IMG/VR virus record: IMGVR_UViG_2541047759_000001
DNA length: 64,000 nt
Origin: a virus
Taxonomy: Duplodnaviria; Heunggongvirae; Uroviricota; Caudoviricetes
Direction: 5' to 3' (one strand)
The position numbers and the translations under genes are program-made. Each line of letters opens with the position of its first letter. Within the stretch, counting starts at the first letter, position 1. A model generated the notes under the pieces. That model did not search any database. It worked only from the letters and a program-made list of their open reading frames with translations, and had not been told where the DNA came from. Shown piece by piece: positions 4,331 through 57,406 of this stretch.

Positions 4331-4898
4331 TATCGCGCCCTCAACAATGAGTTTTGTGATGCGGTGCCTGGTGCCTCCAGGTGACGTTAACCAGTTAACA
4401 ATTAACGCCGGATACAGAGAATCCACCCATAACACTGTTTTTGGTTTTAACTGTTCCGCGTGCGCTTAGCCGCATTCACCGCATCACAAAATTCACTTTA
4501 AAAAGGGCGGCAGAGCAGTCACGGAGTAAAACTGATACCGCCAAACGTCACCAGAAAATTGATAACAGAGGGCGTTGCAGTGGGGTTGTCACTTAAGCGT
4601 ATGGTCAACCTGACAACCCGGTGTCCTCAACGGGGGAAGGAATAACCCCGCCATACTTACCGCCGCGCCATTTCGCGGATTGCCACAACCGGAAGCGCAC
4701 GGTCGACGAAAATTTAACGACAGGCTATCTATGAACCAGCTACCTCGCCGTGCGCTTTCGCGTTATGGTCTGACTTTTCAGGGAAATATCCTTTCAGTAA
4801 ACTGTCAGTGCCGGATGCTCACCCGTGTCCGGCGCACGCACTCCACCTCACCCGTGGAGAACTCCTTAATTACCAACCTTAGCTTCGTTGGTTATCTA

Positions 4899-10233: not shown

Positions 10234-10491
10234 ATACAGCGAACGCCATTGGTTTAGTTGGATATTTACTGTGCCGGACAAAAACGGTTTGCGGGGAAAT
10301 CTTAGTTAAGTAGAATGACTGCGGGTGCTTGAGGCTATCTGTCTCAGGCATGAACACCAAAAGGCAGATAGAGAAAAGCCCCAGTTAACATTACGCGTCC
10401 TGCAAGACGCTTAACATTAATCTGAGGCCATATCTATGCGACACATAGAGATTAGCCTCTTACGGACCGAAAGGTCAAGGAGAAGCAGGCT

Positions 10492-10647
10492 ATGAAGCAG
10501 CAAAAGGCGATGTTAATCGCCCTGATCGTCATCTGTTTAACCGTCATAGTGACGGCACTGGTAACGAGGAAAGACCTCTGCGAGGTACGAATCCGAACCG
10601 GCCAGACGGAGGTCGCTGTCTTCACAGCTTACGAACCTGAGGAGTAA
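10492..10647 (+). CDS. hok: Hok/Gef family type I toxin
   Basis: 51-aa translation MKQQKAMLIALIVICLTVIVTALVTRKDLCEVRIRTGQTEVAVFTAYEPEE matches the Hok/Gef family; structured leader upstream and terminator downstream. Confidence 0.85.
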   Translation: MKQQKAMLIALIVICLTVIVTALVTRKDLCEVRIRTGQTEVAVFTAYEPEE

Positions 10648-13489: not shown

Positions 13490-13565
13490 GGCCCTTTAGC
13501 TCAGTGGTGAGAGCGAGCGACTCATAATCGCCAGGTCGCTGGTTCAAATCCAGCAAGGGCCACCA
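13490..13565 (+). tRNA. ileZ: tRNA with CAU anticodon, tRNA-Ile2 (lysidine) type
   Basis: 76-nt cloverleaf with GGCCCTT/AAGGGCC acceptor stem, CTCATAA anticodon loop, GGTTCAAATCC T-loop, encoded CCA. Confidence 0.85.
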
Positions 13566-13665
13566 TCACAAACCGCCATTAGCTTATCAGGAAGAGCAGA
13601 CGACACGATAACAGGGTTGTTGGTGCGGGGGCGGGTCCCCGATGGCGGTCCATTATCGGTATTCA

Positions 13666-13739
13666 GCGTTGTTAGCTCAGCCGGACAGAGCAATTGCCTT
13701 CTAAGCAATCGGTCACTGGTTCGAATCCAGTACAGCGCG
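13666..13739 (+). tRNA. tRNA-Arg (UCU anticodon), phage-type
   Basis: Acceptor stem with one G-U pair, CTTCTAA anticodon loop, GGTTCGAATCC T-loop; no encoded CCA. Confidence 0.7.
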
Positions 13740-14206: not shown

Positions 14207-14653
14207 ATACATATCTGGATTATCACTTGTTACGGTAAAAAGTGATTGCTTACTGTTTTTGTGAGTGGCATTGCAGCAGCCGGATAATGTCAGTGCTGGC
14301 TGACGGTGTGCTGGTGGCGGGTGTGGTGGTTGTTGCTTTCCCGTTGCTGAAAAAGAAAACGCCAGACTGTTAGCCGGGTATCAGTTAGCGGGAGAAATTT
14401 TTAAATACTTCACAATTCAGGCGGTTGACTGTTGTCTGGTTTGCGGGGAGTTTGTTAAAAGAAACTGGCATGGTGAATCCCCCTGTGCGGAGGGGCAATC
14501 AGCGAGTAGGTATATGGGATAATCGCGGATTCAGGTGCTGGTACTGAATTCACCGGGAGGCACCCGGCACCATGCAATGGCACATAGCGCCACTCTCCAG
14601 CCCCTCTCCGGAGGGGCTGTTTATATTGATTTTGTCAGATGTGAGTAAACTCC

Positions 14654-51315: not shown

Positions 51316-51341
51316 TAATTGTGATGACCGGAATCAAAATT

Positions 51342-52571
51342 ATGAGCAGAGCACTTAACAAACTGAGCGATACACAGCTGAGGAAAATCAACGGCACACC
51401 CGCCCAAAAAACAGCCTTTCTTAATGACGGTGGAAACCTGAGCGTCAGGCATTCAACCAGTGGCCTTTTAACCTGGTATTTCACTTACAGGGCCGGAACG
51501 GGAAGGGGGGCACCACCGGAACGCATTAAGCTGGGAAATTATCCTGATCTGAGCCTGAAATCAGCCAGGGAAAAAGCCGCCCAGTGTCGCGCATGGCTGG
51601 CAGAGGGGAAAAATCCACGTCATGAAATGAATTACACCGTACAGGAAGCGTTAAAGCCGGTAACGGTTGGCGATGCGCTCACCTACTGGCTTGAGTCGTA
51701 CGCAAAGGAAAACCGCGTGGATTATGCCGCCCTGAAAAAGCGCCTTAATAATCACGTAATACAGCACATTGGTGCTATGCCGCTGGATAAATGCGAGCTA
51801 CGGCACTGGCTGGCCTGTTTTGACCAGGTGGCAAAGCGAACGCCTGTTACTGCCGGATTCTTGCTACAGACGTGCAAACAGGCGCTTAAGTTCTGCCGGA
51901 GGCGGCGCTATGCAATCAGCAACGTTCTTGATGATATGAGTGTGGCGGACGTTGGGAAAAAACCGGATATAAGCGAGCGCGTCTTAAGCACCAAAGAACT
52001 TGGCGAATTATTGCAGGCACTGGACAAAAAAATATTTTCCCCTTACTACGTCGCACTAATCCGCCTCCTGATTGTTTTCGGATGCCGGACGGTAGAACTG
52101 AGGTTATCGGAGATCAGCGAGTGGGATTTTACCGAAATGCTCTGGACCGTGCCGAAAGAACACAGCAAAACGAAGGTGGCAATATTCCGGCCCATACCGG
52201 AAGCAATACTGCCGTTCGTCACGCAGCTGGTGGAGCAGAACAGGCACACGGGCTTATTGCTGGGGGAAGTGAAACAGGAAACAAGCGTGTCGCAGTACGG
52301 CAGATTAGCGCACAGGAGGCTAAAACACCCTCACTGGTCACTGCATGACATCCGGCGCACCTTTACAACGATGCTGAACGATTTAGGCGTGGATCCTCAC
52401 GTCGTGGAGCAGCTTACAGGTCATCAGATGCCAGGGATGCAACGAGTCTATAACCATTCCCGTTATCTGGATGCGAAACGTGACGCGCTGGATATGTGGA
52501 CGGAGCGGTTAGGGATACTGGCGGGAACACATGAAAACGTAACCACATTGCCAATAGCCAGAGAAATATAA
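51342..52571 (+). CDS. int: Tyrosine integrase, P4-like family
   Basis: 409 aa; C-terminal 'HDIRRTF...GHQ...RVYNHSRY' catalytic region; adjacent to attL. Confidence 0.88.
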   Translation: MSRALNKLSDTQLRKINGTPAQKTAFLNDGGNLSVRHSTSGLLTWYFTYRAGTGRGAPPERIKLGNYPDLSLKSAREKAAQCRAWLAEGKNPRHEMNYTVQEALKPVTVGDALTYWLESYAKENRVDYAALKKRLNNHVIQHIGAMPLDKCELRHWLACFDQVAKRTPVTAGFLLQTCKQALKFCRRRRYAISNVLDDMSVADVGKKPDISERVLSTKELGELLQALDKKIFSPYYVALIRLLIVFGCRTVELRLSEISEWDFTEMLWTVPKEHSKTKVAIFRPIPEAILPFVTQLVEQNRHTGLLLGEVKQETSVSQYGRLAHRRLKHPHWSLHDIRRTFTTMLNDLGVDPHVVEQLTGHQMPGMQRVYNHSRYLDAKRDALDMWTERLGILAGTHENVTTLPIAREI

Positions 52572-52936
52572 TTTTTTTTGCGATTTTTCAGGATGCGGAC
52601 AACGTGAAACAACGAGACACAACGACGAACAACAAGGAACAAAATGGAACAACGGGTTAAAAATCAGCCATCGTAATAACCATTTGATTTTTATAGGTGT
52701 ACTGTTTTTTTATACACTGGCGAATCACTCTTAAAAATATGTAAAAAAGGCGTAAAAGTAAAATTTTATGCCTTTGCATCATAATGAATTAAAAGAGTTT
52801 TTATTCTCATTTCCCCTGCTTCTGTAAAACGACCGCCGCCAGTGTTTGCCATTCCACAAACACCCTGACACAATCCGACACAACCCAACCCAATAATCCA
52901 CCCAATGACTCTTTAAGAAACAACAAAGGGGGAATT

Positions 52937-53125
52937 GTGTTAAGCACAGATCGCTTTATACGTGAAAAAGAATGTCAGCAACTTACAGGCCTGAGCCGCT
53001 CATGTCGGTACCGCCTGGAAAAAGCCGGACAATTCCCATCACGGCGTAAGCTGGGCGGTCGTTTCGTTGGCTGGTCTTTATCCGAAGTTCTGGCATGGAA
53101 GGACAGCTGCGAGGCAGTTCACTAA
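52937..53125 (+). CDS. alpA: AlpA-family transcriptional regulator
   Basis: 62 aa; 'IREKECQQLTGLSRSCRYRLEKAGQFPSRRKLGGR...GWSLSEVLAW' typical of AlpA. Confidence 0.85.
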   Translation: MLSTDRFIREKECQQLTGLSRSCRYRLEKAGQFPSRRKLGGRFVGWSLSEVLAWKDSCEAVH

Positions 53126-53542
53126 TCAGGCTGGCGGCACACAGCCGCCACCCATCCACTAATACAGAGATCTAACCATGAATACTGGATATTCTCCCGA
53201 ACAAGGGCGGGGCTTCGTTCGTCCTGAAAAACAGAATCTGCAAAATTTTGCCGAAATTATTCCGGTTATTTCCGGCCTTACTGGCGGGAGTGAAACCAAT
53301 ATTGTTAACGCCAGAGCGTTGCAGATGTTTGATGATAAAAAGGGAGTAAATTTAACTTACACCCCTGACGGCAATCAGAATATGAGCATTATCTCTGAGT
53401 CAGGTTTCTACAAACTAATAAAAACAAAAAGCGCCCCGTTGCCGGAGCGCCTTTGTGAACAATTAACCTACTGCGCAAAAAATGAATCTGAGCAGTGGGA
53501 TTATATCAACCATGTGGAGAAGCGCCACAATTGCCGAATAAC

Positions 53543-53574
53543 GGGCAAAACAAAGGCCACCCGCTACGGTGGCC
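53543..53574 (-). terminator. Minus-strand intrinsic terminator ending the divergent regulator operon
   Basis: GGCCACC...GGTGGCC hairpin followed on the minus strand by TTTGTTTTGCCC. Confidence 0.6.
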
Positions 53575-53653
53575 CCTCGACACAAGCTACACGTTATCCC
53601 CAACGCATGAGCATTGCCAACAATGCCACATTTGCGGCTGGTGGGCAATGCAA

Positions 53654-53842
53654 TCAGTCAGGTTCAGTTCGTTGCCATACCTGCAATGAGCGCTTTTCCC
53701 TGTACTCTTTAAGGAATTGCTCAAGGGCAAAAGCACATGGCGCGAATCTTTCTGATTCATGCTCTATCTTTCTGCGCCGTCTTTTCCGTGCCGGTGATAA
53801 TGTTTTGGTCAATTCTTTATCGGTCATTGTGTTGTCCTGCAT
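53654..53842 (-). CDS. Small basic hypothetical protein
   Basis: 62-aa ORF downstream of the RHH gene on the minus strand; 'ARKRRRRK' basic patch. Confidence 0.4.
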   Translation of the reverse strand: MQDNTMTDKELTKTLSPARKRRRRKIEHESERFAPCAFALEQFLKEYREKRSLQVWQRTEPD

Positions 53843-53884
53843 AGCAATGCGCCGTAGTTACTCACACCACGGCGCTGGTGATGG

Positions 53885-54064
53885 TTACTCCTGCTCTTTG
53901 GCCTTGCGGCGCTGGCGGCGTTTGATCTCGCCTTGCATTGACGCAATGATGAATTGTGATGTGCTTTCGCCTGATTCTTTCACTGATTCCATGGCGTTTA
54001 CTATTTCGTGTGGTACACGAGCCTTTAGAGCTTGTGATTTTGCGTTTGTTGTACCCGTTGCCAT
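53885..54064 (-). CDS. Ribbon-helix-helix (Arc/CopG-like) DNA-binding protein
   Basis: 59 aa; 'LKARVPHEIVNAMESVKESGESTSQFIIASM' fits the RHH pattern; divergent from the rightward promoter. Confidence 0.6.
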   Translation of the reverse strand: MATGTTNAKSQALKARVPHEIVNAMESVKESGESTSQFIIASMQGEIKRRQRRKAKEQE

Positions 54065-54125
54065 TTCTATTCCTCTGTTGGATTGGTGGGGGACAGTATA
54101 CACAGAAAAAGCACAAATAAAACCC

Positions 54126-54166
54126 TTGACGTGGGCCACACCTAAAGCATATAGTGGGCCACACCT
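54126..54166 (+). promoter_or_regulatory. Rightward promoter with two GTGGGCCACACCT operator-like direct repeats
   Basis: TTGACG at 54126-54131, 18-bp spacer, TATAGT at 54150-54155; 13-bp repeats at 54131-54143 and 54154-54166. Confidence 0.55.
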
Positions 54167-54263
54167 TGAGATTATCAAGGTGCATAAATGCAAAGCCCCG
54201 CAAGTGTCGTTACCACTCGCAGGGCTTCTAACCACCAACGATAGCGAAAGTATCGAGGTAGCT

Positions 54264-54464
54264 ATGTTAAATCATACCACACACCCGCAAGGGCGGGACT
54301 CGCACAACCTGAATAAATACATCTGGCGTTTTATCGCCCTGAGCACGGCACAACCGCGCGTGATTACCATTGAGGCCACCAGCGAACAGGAAGCACGCCA
54401 GCAATCTCCGGCTGGCTGCGTGATGGTATTTGCTGCCCGTATTCGTCAGGGGGTAGGCTTATGA
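54264..54464 (+). CDS. Small hypothetical protein, first gene of the rightward satellite operon
   Basis: GAGGTAG RBS 5 nt upstream of ATG at 54264; 66 aa. Confidence 0.5.
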   Translation: MLNHTTHPQGRDSHNLNKYIWRFIALSTAQPRVITIEATSEQEARQQSPAGCVMVFAARIRQGVGL

Positions 54465-54691
54465 GCCAGGAAATCACACTACAACAGGCAGCAGAACGCG
54501 CCCACCAAATCGAAGTTATTTGCGCACTGGCAGAGGATTACCCTGGCATGATGACCGACAGCGAATCAGGGGCAATCATCGGCTTACTTAAACGCCTTAG
54601 CGGTGAGGTCTGCGTATTCCTGAGCGATGAACAGGAAAGAAGAACGCTTATTTCTAACGAAAAAAAATGCGGAGGGGTACATGTGCAATAA
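54461..54691 (+). CDS. Small hypothetical protein
   Basis: 76-aa ORF, start overlapping the upstream stop. Confidence 0.5.
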   Translation: MSQEITLQQAAERAHQIEVICALAEDYPGMMTDSESGAIIGLLKRLSGEVCVFLSDEQERRTLISNEKKCGGVHVQ

Positions 54692-55115
54692 AACCACACC
54701 GGACGCAGCCGCCGCCGCACTCACTACGCTGATGCACGCGCTTATTGATATTGAATGCACGGCAGAGCTTGCGCAGGGAGAAGAACAGAAAGACCGGACA
54801 CAGTTCGCCCTGGAATGTATCCGATACATCGCAACGCGGTCGCTGAATGACGCTAAAAATATTCTTGTTGCTGATTGTGAAAATGGGGGGGTTATGCGTG
54901 ATGATCGTTTTAATTCCCTGAAACAGGAATTTTCCGGCGTTCCTGATGATGCGGCTGATGCGCTTTCGTCAATGCCAGAGCTTATTAGAGCGGATTTTTT
55001 CTTACTTTCCACGAGAGAATATAAATCAACGGGGCTTGATGTACTGAATATCGCCGCCGATTATGCTGATTTCGTGACAGAGGTTATTTTAAGAAAAACG
55101 ACGGACGGGGATTAA
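54681..55115 (+). CDS. Hypothetical protein
   Basis: GGAGGGG RBS before ATG at 54681; 144 aa. Confidence 0.55.
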   Translation: MCNKTTPDAAAAALTTLMHALIDIECTAELAQGEEQKDRTQFALECIRYIATRSLNDAKNILVADCENGGVMRDDRFNSLKQEFSGVPDDAADALSSMPELIRADFFLLSTREYKSTGLDVLNIAADYADFVTEVILRKTTDGD

Positions 55116-55355: not shown

Positions 55356-55655
55356 ATGAAACTTAAATATTCTGGCTTAACTGCCAGTGGCAAAACTCGC
55401 ACTAAATTCATGCGCGGTGATATTTACCGCGATAAGTACGGCGGCACGGTAATGATTAAGGGCGTGGAGGAACGGCGCGTAACCTACCGTCGTGAAGGCT
55501 ACGAATATGATTGCGTGATGCCTGTTTATCAGTTCGACCGTGATTTTTCTCTTGTGCAGGCCGTACCGCGTAACGTGCCCACCAGCAGGGAGAAAGCACG
55601 CGCCAATATTCAGAAGATGAAAACCATGATTAAAGGATTCAGGGGTAAAAAATGA
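55356..55655 (+). CDS. Small basic hypothetical protein
   Basis: 99-aa ORF overlapping the primase start. Confidence 0.5.
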   Translation: MKLKYSGLTASGKTRTKFMRGDIYRDKYGGTVMIKGVEERRVTYRREGYEYDCVMPVYQFDRDFSLVQAVPRNVPTSREKARANIQKMKTMIKGFRGKK

Positions 55656-57406
55656 AACTGGCACCGAACGTAAAACAGCAGTCACGCGGCATAAAACACA
55701 AAGGAACAGAAGTCATTATTTTTGCGGGTAGTGATGCCTGGGCACACGCGAAACAATGGCAGGAACATGATGCGCGTATGGCCGGAGATAATGAGCCTCC
55801 TGTGTGGCTTGGGGAGCAGCAGTTATCAGAACTGGATAAGCTGCAAATTGTGCCGGAAGGCAGAAAATCCGTGCGCATATTCAGGGCCGGATATCTTGCG
55901 CCAGTAATGATAAAGGCGATTGGCCAGAAGCTGGCGGCGGCAGGCGTACAGGATGCAAATTTTTACCCTGATGGTATGCACGGTCAGAAGGTGGAGAACT
56001 GGCGCGAATATCTGGCCCGTGAGCGCCAGAATCTTTCTGATGGTCTGGTCATTGAGCTTCCGGTAAAGCAAAAGGCGCAACTTTCGCAGATGGCGGACAG
56101 TGAGCGCGCGCAGCTGCTTGCCGATCGCTTTGATGGCGTTTGCGTACATCCTGAAAGTGAAATCGTTCACGTATGGCGCGGCGGGGTATGGTGTCCGGTC
56201 AGCACAATGGAACTTAGCCGCGAAATGGTGGCGATCTATTCAGAGCACAGGGCCACTTTCAGCAAGCGCGTAATCAATAACGCCGTGGAAGCGTTAAAAG
56301 TTATTGCCGAACCAATGGGCGAGCCGTCCGGCGATTTGCTGCCGTTCGCCAATGGTGCGCTTGACCTGAAAACGGGGGGATTTTCCCCGCACACGCCGGA
56401 GAACTGGATCACCACGCACAACGGCATTGAGTACACGCCACCAGCACCAGGGGAGAACATCCGCGATAACGCGCCAAACTTTCATAAATGGCTTGAGCAC
56501 GCAGCCGGAAAAGACCCGCGCAAGATGATGCGTATATGTGCCGCGCTGTACATGATTATGGCGAACCGGTACGACTGGCAGATGTTTATTGAGGCCACCG
56601 GAGACGGCGGGAGCGGTAAAAGTACATTCACGCACATAGCCAGCCTTCTGGCAGGGAAACAGAACACGGTAAGCGCTGAAATGACATCGCTTGATGATGC
56701 TGGTGGACGTGCGCAGGTTGTCGGGAGTCGTCTTATCGTCCTGGCTGACCAGCCGAAATATACAGGCGAAGGAACGGGCATCAAGAAAATCACGGGCGGT
56801 GACCCCGTGGAAATTAACCCGAAATACGAAAAGCGTTTCACGGCTGTAATCAGGGCGGTGGTGCTGGCGACCAACAATAACCCGATGATATTCACCGAAC
56901 GGGCCGGAGGTGTGGCACGTCGTCGCGTGATTTTCCGTTTCGACAATATCGTCAGTGAGGCCGAAAAAGACAGGGAGCTACCGGAAAAGATCGCGGCTGA
57001 AATCCCTGTCATTATCCGCCGATTGCTGGCGAACTTTACCGACCCTGAGAAGGCACGGGCTTTACTACTGGAACAGCGTGACGGTGATGAAGCACTGGCA
57101 ATAAAGCAACAGACGGATCCGGTTATTGAGTTTTGCCAGTTCCTGAATTTTCTGGAGGAAGCGCGCGGCCTGATGATGGGGGGCGGTGGCGATTCAGTGA
57201 AGTACACGACCAGGAACAGCCTTTACCGCGTCTATCTGGCGTTTATGGCATACGCAGGCAGGAGCAAACCGCTAAACGTAAATGACTTTGGAAAGGCTAT
57301 GAAGCCTGCCGCAAAAGTTTACGGACATGAATATATTACGCGGAAAGTTAAGGGGGTAACGCAGACTAACGCAATAACAACAGACGAGTGCGACGCGTTT
57401 TTATAA
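55652..57406 (+). CDS. Primase-helicase (P4 alpha / D5-type, P-loop NTPase)
   Basis: 584 aa; Walker A 'GDGGSGKST'; N-terminal primase-like region; followed by the iteron origin. Confidence 0.85.
   Translation: MKLAPNVKQQSRGIKHKGTEVIIFAGSDAWAHAKQWQEHDARMAGDNEPPVWLGEQQLSELDKLQIVPEGRKSVRIFRAGYLAPVMIKAIGQKLAAAGVQDANFYPDGMHGQKVENWREYLARERQNLSDGLVIELPVKQKAQLSQMADSERAQLLADRFDGVCVHPESEIVHVWRGGVWCPVSTMELSREMVAIYSEHRATFSKRVINNAVEALKVIAEPMGEPSGDLLPFANGALDLKTGGFSPHTPENWITTHNGIEYTPPAPGENIRDNAPNFHKWLEHAAGKDPRKMMRICAALYMIMANRYDWQMFIEATGDGGSGKSTFTHIASLLAGKQNTVSAEMTSLDDAGGRAQVVGSRLIVLADQPKYTGEGTGIKKITGGDPVEINPKYEKRFTAVIRAVVLATNNNPMIFTERAGGVARRRVIFRFDNIVSEAEKDRELPEKIAAEIPVIIRRLLANFTDPEKARALLLEQRDGDEALAIKQQTDPVIEFCQFLNFLEEARGLMMGGGGDSVKYTTRNSLYRVYLAFMAYAGRSKPLNVNDFGKAMKPAAKVYGHEYITRKVKGVTQTNAITTDECDAFL

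What the first reader, a model, noticed from the sequence alone, without database searches (positions are those of the whole stretch)
53543..54166. Divergent regulatory switch in the satellite with repeated operator-like motif
A minus-strand operon (RHH protein plus a 62-aa basic protein, ending at a terminator) faces a rightward promoter whose -35 and -10 each overlap a GTGGGCCACACCT repeat. This resembles a repressor-controlled master switch that helper infection would have to flip.
Basis: inference. Interest (0 to 1): 0.4.

Follow-up and report, generated by a model that had tools for sequence, protein, structure and literature searches.

The report
Repressor-operator switch in an E. coli satellite
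A phage-satellite island thought to lack a repressor carries a small DNA-binding protein gene facing the promoter of its replication genes, and matched changes in protein and repeat across 46 related islands indicate that this protein shuts that promoter off.

Summary
The window carries an island 96.8% identical to EcCICFT073, the model Gram-negative phage-inducible chromosomal island (PICI). A minus-strand operon encodes a YlcI/YnfO-family ribbon-helix-helix (RHH)-like protein (53885-54064) and a 57-aa basic protein, and ends at a terminator. It faces a strong promoter (TTGACG-18-TATAGT, 54126-54155) bracketed by two exact GTGGGCCACACCT copies.

In 46 related loci from about 20 enterobacterial genera, three 11-bp GTG-N5-CAC sites sit at fixed positions. 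Two are on the rightward promoter and one is on the leftward -10. The N5 core falls into about 18 classes that follow the protein's N-terminal strand residues. It does not follow the AlpA allele or the leader hairpin. A natural chimera confirms that specificity lies in the N-terminal half.

The best reading is an autoregulated RHH repressor that silences the icd-like/primase operon.

The layout mirrors phage P4. The icd-like gene belongs to the same family as P4 kil. It is the in-frame end of a long ORF that starts after alpA and runs antisense through the repressor operon. P4's C4/CI immunity RNA is absent.

How the helper overrides the repressor is unresolved. Published work shows AlpA is the helper-responsive activator.

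No binding or expression experiment exists. This is a new variant of a known kind.

The parts
52937..53125 (+). alpA, the helper-responsive activator of the island. It lies upstream on the same strand as the replication operon.
   Evidence: Pfam Phage_AlpA, E = 3e-17. Its role in EcCICFT073 is shown in PMC6092414.
53178..54464 (+). Long ORF of 428 aa, comparable to P4 eta. It starts 53 nt after alpA with a weak Bro-N/Ant-like N-terminus. It runs antisense through the RHH operon and through both promoters, and ends as the icd-like gene in the same frame.
   Evidence: ORF list. PHROG anti-repressor hits at residues 44-90. The icd frame is stop-free through the spacer and the RHH antisense in 26 of 38 non-redundant loci, against 1 and 5 loci for the other two frames and 1.75% of shuffles. 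P4 eta/kil layout.
53427..53454 (-). Second minus-strand intrinsic terminator (T2).
   Evidence: Terminator scan: 12-pair stem followed by TTTTTGTTTTT. Fold z-score -4.7.
53549..53580 (-). Intrinsic terminator of the leftward operon (T1).
   Evidence: GGCCACCGUAGCGGGUGGCC followed by UUUGUUUUG.
53654..53827 (-). Accessory 57-aa basic protein with an R/K-rich N-terminus and a conserved FAPCAFALE motif. The ORF is open up to 53842.
   Evidence: RefSeq CDS. phrog_21027, function unknown. Homologues occur only in E. coli and Shigella, with M6 as the conserved start. Present in 12 of 46 loci.
53885..54064 (-). YlcI/YnfO-family RHH-like protein of 59 aa, the inferred repressor. Residues 11-17 (QALKARV) form the inferred DNA-reading strand.
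54086..54096 (.). O_L, the degenerate third operator copy GTGGGGGACAG (8 of 11 matches). It overlaps the predicted start of the leftward promoter.
   Evidence: A site occupies the same spacer index (21) in nearly all relatives, usually with 0-2 mismatches to that locus's own O1. On its own it is not significant in the window.
54095..54100 (-). -10 of the leftward promoter P_L (TATACT on the minus strand). The -35 is weak in this window.
   Evidence: A CAGTATAC-type box is conserved at spacer index 29-37 in about 40 of 46 loci whatever the operator class. The promoter scan did not call it, so the assignment is inferred.
54126..54155 (+). Rightward promoter P_R: TTGACG, 18-bp spacer, TATAGT.
   Evidence: Promoter scan, 10 of 12. 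The -35 TTGA[ACG]G sits at spacer index 60-61 in 44 of 46 loci.
54131..54143 (+). Operator O1. Its core GTGGGCCACAC fills the P_R spacer next to the -35.
54154..54166 (+). Operator O2. It overlaps the end of the -10 and the predicted start of P_R.
54162..54255 (+). Structured leader of the P_R transcript. It has a 5' hairpin (54162-54182), hairpin 1 (54195-54225), a conserved CUUCUAACCACC stretch, and hairpin 2 (54239-54255) abutting the SD GAGG (54255-54258).
   Evidence: Fold: -33.2 kcal/mol, z-score -3.9. In the consensus fold of 28 relatives, 11 of 14 pairs show changes on both sides.
54264..54464 (+). icd-like gene (66 aa), in the same family as P4 kil. It is the first gene of the operon that runs on to DUF4222 (55356-55655) and the primase (55652-57406).
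   Evidence: NF033153: 69.9 bits here, 76.1 bits for P4 kil. The downstream ORFs are contiguous or overlapping.

Best explanation
**What it is.** This is the immunity-type switch of an EcCICFT073-type PICI.

**Binding sites.** The 59-aa YlcI/YnfO-family protein is a ribbon-helix-helix repressor. It recognises 11-bp GTG-N5-CAC sites through its N-terminal strand. In this window the core is GGCCA.

**Repression of P_R.**
- Two perfect sites occupy the spacer (O1) and the -10/start (O2) of the strong rightward promoter P_R.
- Bound repressor would therefore exclude RNA polymerase.
- That would keep the icd-like, DUF4222 and primase operon silent while the island is integrated.

**Autoregulation.** A weaker third site (O_L) lies on the start of the repressor's own promoter and would limit repressor level.

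**Parallel with P4.** P_R sits where P4 has P_LE, inside a long eta-like ORF that follows alpA and ends as the kil/icd-like gene. Here a protein repressor stands in place of P4's CI/C4 immunity RNA.

**Induction (lower confidence, about 0.35).** Helper-activated, AlpA-autoactivated transcription from the alpA promoter reads through the long ORF. It would run convergently through the repressor operon, lowering repressor synthesis. It would then enter the replication operon from upstream, which bypasses P_R.

**Shown versus inferred.**
- Shown here:
  - the sequence elements;
  - their conserved geometry;
  - the protein-site covariation;
  - family membership;
  - absence of C4.
- Inferred:
  - DNA binding;
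  - repression;
  - the P_L assignment;
  - the induction route.
For: **Identity of the element.** The window is 96.8% identical to the CFT073 island between roxA and phoQ, with int, alpA, primase, capsid and decoration genes.

**Conserved geometry.** Across 46 loci from Escherichia, Serratia, Pectobacterium, Yersinia, Dryocola, Hafnia and others, sites sit at spacer index 21, 66, and 88-91 or 101. The -35 is at index 61.

**Concerted change.** The two or three copies within a locus share the same core, while cores differ between loci.

**Core follows the strand residues.**
- 98% of locus pairs with at most 1 difference in residues 11-17 share the core (at most 1 mismatch).
- Only 1.5% do so when there are 3 or more differences.
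- Mantel r is 0.68 for the strand residues, against 0.33 for the leader hairpin, which lies equally close.

**Core does not follow AlpA.** L003, L006 and L012 have near-identical AlpA but three different cores. L015 has a 38%-identical AlpA but the window's core.

**Natural chimera.** P0032 has an L004-type N-terminal half and a window-type helix 2. It carries L004-type sites at all three positions.

**Correspondence survives loss of the long ORF.** It holds in loci where the plus-strand ORF is closed, for example L022 and L028-30.

**Module swap.** In L049 a different small Arc/HicB-like protein with its own GGTGTACACC inverted repeats occupies the same slot, upstream of the same leader and icd-like gene.

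**Parallel with P4.**
- kil and the window's gene are both NF033153 members.
- The long in-frame ORF is conserved.
- C4, isrK and c4-a1b1 are found in P4 but not here.
Against: - There is no experimental evidence of binding or repression.
- Published EcCICFT073 work found an activator (AlpA) and left the existence of a repressor open.
- Gene and sites are adjacent, so part of the covariation reflects linkage. The rest of the protein correlates with the core as strongly as the strand residues do (r = 0.68 for both).
- RHH membership is weak by standard tests:
  - no Pfam RHH family reaches its cutoff;
  - there is no PDB sequence match;
  - Foldseek found nothing;
  - the monomer model does not form the N-terminal strand.
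- O_L in this window has three mismatches, two of them in the core. P_L has a poor -35 and was not called by the scan.
- O1-O2 spacing (23 bp) is not an integral number of helical turns.
- The read-through induction model rests only on ORF conservation and analogy with P4.
Confidence: 0.72

Rival explanations
1. The protein binds the same sites but acts as a Cro- or Arc-like late shut-off, or as a dosage governor of P_R after induction. It would not be the maintenance repressor of the integrated island. Silence in the uninduced state would then come simply from lack of AlpA.
For: AlpA is necessary for transfer, and its over-expression is sufficient for excision and replication. P_L looks weak in this window. 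O_L is degenerate here.
Against: P_R is a near-consensus sigma-70 promoter (10 of 12). It would fire constitutively without a repressor, and uncontrolled EcCICFT073 replication is toxic. The divergent, self-regulated layout resembles maintenance repressors such as P22 Mnt (established knowledge).
Confidence: 0.13
2. The repeats are read by another factor, such as the long plus-strand ORF product (Bro-N/eta-like), a helper-phage protein, or AlpA acting as an activator at P_R. The RHH covariation would then be mere linkage.
For: The long ORF overlaps the RHH gene in antisense, so its sequence co-varies as well. Bro-network proteins can bind promoters. AlpA activates island genes.
Against: AlpA alleles reassort freely against the core. 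The protein-site correspondence persists in 12 loci where the long frame is closed. A helper factor could not explain about 18 island-specific cores. The chimera P0032 maps specificity to the RHH N-terminal half. The sites lie where binding blocks a promoter rather than activates it.
Confidence: 0.07
3. The leftward operon is a type II toxin-antitoxin pair, with an RHH antitoxin and the 57-aa basic protein as toxin. The repeats would be its autoregulatory operator, unrelated to control of the replication operon.
Against: The second gene is absent from 34 of 46 loci, including all non-Escherichia ones. It matches no toxin family. The two perfect sites sit on the opposing promoter, and only the weakest site is on the operon's own promoter.
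Confidence: 0.04

Closest known systems
Phage P4 immunity/early region (P_LL, vis, eta/kil, P_LE, CI RNA)
   Same: - The gene order is the same: an AlpA/Vis homologue, then a long Bro-network ORF with a promoter inside it.
- An in-frame C-terminal small protein of the Icd-like family follows (P4 kil 76 bits, window 69.9 bits on NF033153).
- Replication genes ending in a primase come next (PMC10111431).
- A hairpin of the CGATAGC type sits just before the kil/icd start in both.
   Different: - P4 controls the leader with the CI (C4-family) RNA and its seqA/isrK targets. These are detected in P4 but are absent from the window and from 24 relatives.
- This island has an antisense-embedded RHH gene with DNA operators on the internal promoter.
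- P4 eta has an Ash N-terminal domain, whereas this ORF has a weak Bro-N.
Phage P22 immI region (Mnt and Arc RHH repressors controlling P_ant)
   Same: A small RHH repressor is transcribed divergently from the promoter it silences. Operators overlap the core promoter, and the repressor regulates itself (established knowledge of P22 immI).
   Different: - There is no detectable sequence relationship; only 1 of 39 family members gives a weak Arc hit.
- The controlled operon encodes replication functions, not an antirepressor.
- There are three 11-bp sites rather than a single 21-bp operator.
Omega repressor of pSM19035 (RHH binding to heptad arrays)
   Different: The sites here are 11 bp long, number two or three, and lie 22-45 bp apart. 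They are not contiguous 7-bp arrays.
Stl/Rpr master repressors of Gram-positive PICIs (SaPIs)
   Same: The position in the element and the presumed job are the same: a divergent repressor between int and the replication module keeps the island quiescent (PMC6092414).
   Different: Stl proteins are large HTH proteins that are inactivated by binding a helper protein. This protein is a 59-aa RHH-like protein. The known helper input is transcriptional activation of alpA, and no anti-repressor is known.
EcCICFT073 as published (AlpA-activator model)
   Same: It is the same element (96.8% identity, same insertion site). The alpA, int and pri roles apply directly.
   Different: [quoted passage not shown] No paper in the searchable library mentions the YlcI/YnfO gene or these repeats in a regulatory role.

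Membership tests
YlcI/YnfO family (NCBIfam NF041551) | Score above the curated cutoff on the family HMM. | tested here: met
   67.4 bits against a cutoff of 30, E = 8e-19, residues 10-51. RefSeq gives the same name.
Ribbon-helix-helix (Arc/MetJ/CopG) superfamily | Beta-alpha-alpha fold: an N-terminal strand followed by two helices. | tested here: inconclusive
Ribbon-helix-helix (Arc/MetJ/CopG) superfamily | Sequence match to a curated RHH family. | tested here: not met
   No Pfam RHH family reaches its cutoff. There are only sub-threshold hits: CB_ParB_C in 10 of 39 members (best E = 3e-4), plus PSK_trans_fac, Arc, RHH_5 and HicB_lk_antitox. A PDB profile search found none.
Ribbon-helix-helix (Arc/MetJ/CopG) superfamily | DNA specificity carried by the N-terminal strand residues. 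| tested here: met
   This is comparative evidence only. The core class follows residues 11-17. The natural chimera P0032 follows its N-terminal half.
Ribbon-helix-helix (Arc/MetJ/CopG) superfamily | Obligate dimer with an intersubunit two-stranded sheet. | not testable with these tools
   Only monomer prediction of window sequences is allowed.
Gram-negative PICI (EcCICFT073 type) | int followed by alpA and a primase, co-oriented, at a specific att site, with a size near 11 kb. | tested here: met
   int 51321-52571, alpA 52937-53125, primase 55652-57406. The island lies between roxA and phoQ and is 96.8% identical to the CFT073 island, with capsid and decoration genes.
P4-type RNA immunity (Rfam C4 RF01695, isrK RF01394, c4-a1b1 RF03163) | A match to the covariance models in the leader between the internal promoter and kil/icd. 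| tested here: not met
   There is no hit at gathering score or at E up to 10 in 53300-54700. There is none in 24 related loci. The P4 positive control gives 74.9, 60.8 and 44.1 bits.
Icd-like / P4 Kil family (NF033153) | HMM score above cutoff, and position as the in-frame C-terminal part of a longer ORF downstream of an AlpA/Vis gene. | tested here: met
   69.9 bits for the window and 76.1 bits for P4 kil. The in-frame long ORF is 53178-54464. Pairwise BLASTP to P4 is only marginal, E = 0.06.
Type II toxin-antitoxin module | A conserved antitoxin-toxin gene pair with a recognisable toxin. | tested here: not met
   The partner is present in 12 of 46 loci only. It matches no Pfam, NCBIfam or toxin family.
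Sigma-70 promoter repressed by occlusion | Operators overlap the -35/spacer/-10/start of a consensus-like promoter. | tested here: met
   Sequence level only. Promoter activity and repression were not measured.

The most novel reading that the evidence does not exclude
Many Gram-negative PICIs may carry a previously unrecognised immunity system with many mutually exclusive specificities. The repressor gene is written antisense inside a long translated eta-like ORF. Induction would work by collision. Helper-triggered, AlpA-driven transcription and translation of that ORF would run head-on through the repressor operon, shutting off repressor synthesis. It would carry polymerase past the repressed promoter into the replication genes. 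No anti-repressor protein would be needed. Islands of different specificity could then coexist in one cell without cross-repression.
Probability: 0.3. Interest if true: 0.75.

Novelty: new variant of a known kind. Interest (0 to 1): 0.58.

Why it matters
**The open question.** EcCICFT073 is the reference Gram-negative PICI. It is also used as an engineering chassis, for example in diagnostics (PMC10460865). Its published regulatory model has only an activator (AlpA), and the authors left open whether a global repressor exists.

**What this adds.**
- It gives a concrete candidate repressor with mapped candidate operators and about 18 natural specificity classes.
- The question of how these islands stay silent and how the helper wakes them becomes testable with simple reporter and EMSA experiments.
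- The classes offer a set of small repressor-operator pairs that may be orthogonal.

**Wider links.**
- It assigns a likely function to the uncharacterised YlcI/YnfO family.
- Regions matching this module occur in 1902 of 5426 complete E. coli genomes.
- It ties PICI regulation to the P4 eta/kil design, with a protein repressor in place of an RNA one.

Tried and rejected
- **C4/IsrK-type immunity RNA in the P_R leader.** My first guess came from the P1 c4-icd order. Rfam rejected it at both thresholds, and the P4 positive control worked.
- **AlpA-binding sites.** Rejected because AlpA alleles reassort against the core.
- **Toxin-antitoxin pair.** Rejected because the partner is missing in 34 of 46 loci.
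- **Standard RHH tests.**
  - The PDB sequence search found nothing.
  - Foldseek against the PDB found nothing.
  - Pfam at default thresholds found nothing.
- **tblastn against the phage collection.** The long ORF and the icd-like protein found one satellite (vB_KppS-Ant) and Ant fragments, but not P4. The P4 link needed the family HMM.
- **Literature searches.** Searches for EcCICFT073 with repressor, for PICI with ribbon-helix-helix, and for YlcI/YnfO found no functional study. That absence covers only the searchable library.
- **O_L alone.** It is not statistically distinguishable in the window: 103 three-mismatch matches against 175 expected. It is accepted only on positional conservation.
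- **int-alpA RNA motif.** Not present upstream of alpA in the window.

Full report
**1. What is at the coordinates**

- The motif GTGGGCCACACCT occurs exactly twice in the 64-kb window, at 54131 and 54154. The repeat finder extends the two copies to 22 nt, with starts 23 bp apart.
- The only strong sigma-70-like site in 52500-55000 is TTGACG-18-TATAGT at 54126-54155 on the plus strand.
- Repeat 1 begins at the last base of the -35 and fills the spacer. Repeat 2 begins inside the -10 and covers the expected start.
- On the minus strand lie a 59-aa ORF (53885-54064, SD GAGGAA) and a second small ORF. The second ORF's conserved start is the ATG at 53827 (57 aa, SD AGGA), not 53842.
- Two good intrinsic terminators follow, at 53549-53580 and 53427-53454.

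**2. What element this is**

The segment 51300-58400 is 100% identical to several E. coli chromosomes. It is 96.8% identical to CFT073 at 1377888-1384842, between roxA and phoQ.

The CFT073 annotation lists int, an AlpA-type regulator, 'YlcI/YnfO family protein', 'host cell division inhibitor Icd-like protein', DUF4222, primase, SSB, major capsid protein and head decoration protein. This matches EcCICFT073, the first characterised Gram-negative PICI, whose capsid (c1499) and decoration (c1500) genes are named in PMC6092414.

In that paper AlpA is an activator, helper phages turn on alpA transcription, and AlpA over-expression alone drives excision and replication. [quoted passage not shown]

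**3. Comparative evidence for a repressor-operator pair**

The 931-bp region has relatives in 1902 of 5426 complete E. coli genomes. I read 13 annotated E. coli loci. A degenerate-pattern scan of one genome per species added 32 loci from about 20 other enterobacterial genera.

All share a 186-205-bp spacer between the RHH gene and the icd-like gene, with a fixed plan:
- an 11-bp site at spacer index 21, next to a conserved CAGTATAC box;
- a -35 TTGA[ACG]G at index 61;
- a second site at index 66;
- a third site at index 88-91 (direct), or at index 101 (often inverted).

The sites have the form GTG-N5-CAC. Within one locus the copies share the same N5 core. Between loci the core differs, for example GGCCA, TAAGA, GCTGA, TT(C/T)AA, TATTT, CAAGT, GA(A/T)TC, CGATT, GCATG, GTGTT and others.

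The core class follows residues 11-17 of the protein. Examples are QALKARV or QSLKSRV with GG(G/A)CCA, [KR]KLEARV with GGCTGA, QMTT[VI]R[IV] with GTATTTC, and QQLNARF with GCGATTC, each recurring in different genera.

The numbers from 43 non-redundant loci are:
- 98% of locus pairs with at most one difference in residues 11-17 share the core (at most one mismatch).
- Only 1.5% do so when there are three or more differences.
- The Mantel correlation is 0.68. For the leader hairpin, which lies as close to O1 as the strand codons do, it is 0.33.

Linkage cannot be fully excluded, because gene and sites are adjacent and the rest of the protein correlates equally well. Four points argue for recognition rather than linkage alone:
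- The copies change in concert within a locus.
- Reassortment is seen on the other side of the sites.
- AlpA is independent of the core. L003, L006 and L012 have about the same AlpA but different cores. Dryocola L015 has a 38%-identical AlpA but the window's core.
- The natural chimera P0032 has an N-terminal half of the GCTGA class and a helix 2 identical to the window's protein. Its contig carries GCTGA sites at all three positions.

**4. Is the protein an RHH?**

It is a clear member of NCBIfam YlcI_YnfO_N, a family with no described function.
- No Pfam RHH family reaches threshold.
- A profile search of PDB sequences finds nothing.
- Foldseek finds nothing.
- Scanning 39 family members gives sub-threshold hits almost only to RHH-clan families: CB_ParB_C in 10 members, plus PSK_trans_fac, Arc, RHH_5 and HicB-like.
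- The AF2 model (pLDDT 85) has the two helices in the expected places.
- The monomer model cannot form the intersubunit ribbon.

I file the fold as probable, not proven.

**5. How it most likely works**

O1 and O2 are perfect copies on the spacer and on the -10/start of a near-consensus promoter. Occupancy would exclude RNA polymerase.

The genes from 54264 to the primase stop at 57406 are contiguous or overlapping. P_R is therefore the natural promoter of the replication operon.

On the other strand, the conserved TATACT (54100-54095) lies about 30 nt upstream of the RHH start codon. This is the best candidate for the -10 of P_L. O_L would cover its start, giving negative autoregulation. In this window O_L is degraded to 8 of 11 matches. 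In Dryocola, which has the same specificity, it is 10 of 11.

The design is that of a small maintenance repressor with graded operators, as in P22 Mnt. Sites that are direct in some classes and inverted in others recall the omega repressor. Both comparisons rest on established knowledge.

**6. The second gene**

The 57-aa basic protein is real. It has a conserved FAPCAFALE motif and homologues only in E. coli and Shigella. It is present in only 12 of 46 loci and matches no family beyond an unannotated PHROG. This argues against a toxin-antitoxin reading and against a core role in the switch.

**7.

The icd-like frame stays open far upstream of its ATG. In the window it forms a 428-aa ORF (53178-54464). 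That ORF starts 53 nt after alpA and has a weak Bro-N/Ant-like N-terminus. It runs antisense through the whole RHH operon, with third codon positions coinciding, and through both promoters.

The spacer plus the RHH antisense is stop-free in this frame in 26 of 38 non-redundant loci. The other two frames are stop-free in 1 and 5 loci, and shuffled spacers in 1.75% of trials. All 26 loci have spacer lengths equal modulo 3. Independent annotators called such long ORFs in the satellite vB_KppS-Ant and in CP028739.

This is the phage P4 plan as summarised in PMC10111431:
- vis (an AlpA homologue) is followed by eta.
- The promoter P_LE lies inside eta.
- kil is an in-frame C-terminal part of eta.
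- Translation of eta from the upstream late promoter allows read-through into the replication genes.

I verified on the P4 sequence that eta (199 codons) ends with kil (65 codons), and that kil scores 76.1 bits on the same Icd-like model as the window's gene.

P4 controls this leader with the CI (C4) RNA and its targets. Rfam finds all three P4 elements but nothing in the window or in 24 related loci. In this PICI lineage a protein repressor therefore occupies the place that an RNA repressor holds in P4.

A further PICI (L049) has a different small Arc/HicB-like protein and its own GGTGTACACC inverted repeats in the same slot, upstream of the same leader and icd-like gene. The repressor module appears to be exchangeable.

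**8. Induction**

The published facts are that AlpA is helper-induced, activates its own promoter, is needed for expression of a reporter fused to the third ORF, and suffices for replication. These facts require that AlpA-dependent events overcome the RHH block.

The layout suggests read-through from the alpA promoter along the long ORF. That transcription would run convergently to the repressor operon and enter the replication operon from upstream. This is inference by analogy, and I give it about 0.35. Other routes, such as an anti-repressor or titration after replication, are not excluded.

**9. Leader RNA**

The predicted P_R transcript starts with a hairpin (54162-54182). It then has a GC-rich interrupted hairpin (54195-54225), a conserved CUUCUAACCACC stretch, and a short hairpin (54239-54255) abutting or enclosing the SD.
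- The window's leader folds better than all 200 shuffles.
- In 28 relatives, 11 of 14 consensus pairs show compensatory changes.
- P4 has a similar CGATAGC hairpin before kil.

Its role (stability, translation control or attenuation) is unknown.

**10. Novelty and limits**

Full-text searches found no functional study of this gene, family or repeats. A 2026 survey lists YlcI/YnfO only as a 'prophage-associated protein' in cf-PICIs. The library is incomplete, so prior description elsewhere cannot be excluded.

Everything about binding, repression and induction is inferred from sequence comparison. The finding is a new variant of a known kind of switch, and it bears on an open question in a well-studied model element.

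Noticed in passing
window 53178-54464 (+): A 428-aa ORF links a Bro-N/Ant-like N-terminus to the icd-like C-terminus. It runs antisense through the RHH operon and both promoters. The frame is kept open in 26 of 38 related loci, against 1.75% of shuffles, and spacer lengths differ by multiples of 3. RefSeq does not annotate it in CFT073.
   Followed up: partly
window 52596-52656 and 52855-52910: Just after the int stop there are six copies of an (A/G)ACAACG-type motif spaced about 10 bp apart. ACACAA-type repeats surround the predicted alpA promoter (TTGCCA-17-CACAAT, 52846-52874). These are candidate AlpA or integrase arm-type binding sites.
   Followed up: no
window 54162-54255: The rightward transcript has a structured leader of three hairpins, with compensatory changes in relatives. 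The SD lies beside or inside the last hairpin. The leader matches no Rfam family.
   Followed up: partly
window 53849-53875 (-): A 10-bp inverted repeat (GCGCCGTAGT / ACCACGGCGC) lies between the RHH stop and the 57-aa gene. It may be an intercistronic hairpin that sets the relative expression of the two genes.
   Followed up: no
window 53427-53454 and 53549-53580 (-): Two strong minus-strand terminators lie about 95 nt apart, with no ORF between them. The stretch could hold a small RNA, or the second terminator may simply be a back-up.
   Followed up: no
L049 2243-2500 (E. coli ET979, NZ_CP100876): A related PICI has a different 64-aa Arc/HicB-like protein and a SWIM zinc-finger gene on the minus strand. 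GGTGTACACC inverted repeats sit in a 140-bp spacer upstream of the same leader and icd-like gene. This indicates that the repressor module can be swapped.
   Followed up: partly
L044 4969-5037: The Rfam int-alpA RNA motif (RF02996, 41.6 bits) is found in one related Enterobacter locus. It is absent from the window's int-alpA spacer.
   Followed up: partly
related loci L004, L008, L011, L013 (plus strand between alpA and the RHH gene): Many relatives carry intact BRO-N and AntA/AntB 'antirepressor' genes after alpA, convergent with the RHH gene. In the window only a remnant survives. These proteins could act on the island's own repressor or on the helper's repressor.
   Followed up: no
window 4505-4556, 10323-10494, 13490-13739, 14439-14628: Rfam finds DicF, a sok antitoxin RNA, two tRNA genes and STnc100. 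These belong to a separate prophage or chromosomal region unrelated to the finding.
   Followed up: no
window 54008-54018 (-): GTGTACCACAC is a two-mismatch operator-like sequence inside the RHH gene. It is formed by the codons for the invariant R-V-P-H residues and is probably a by-product of coding.
   Followed up: partly
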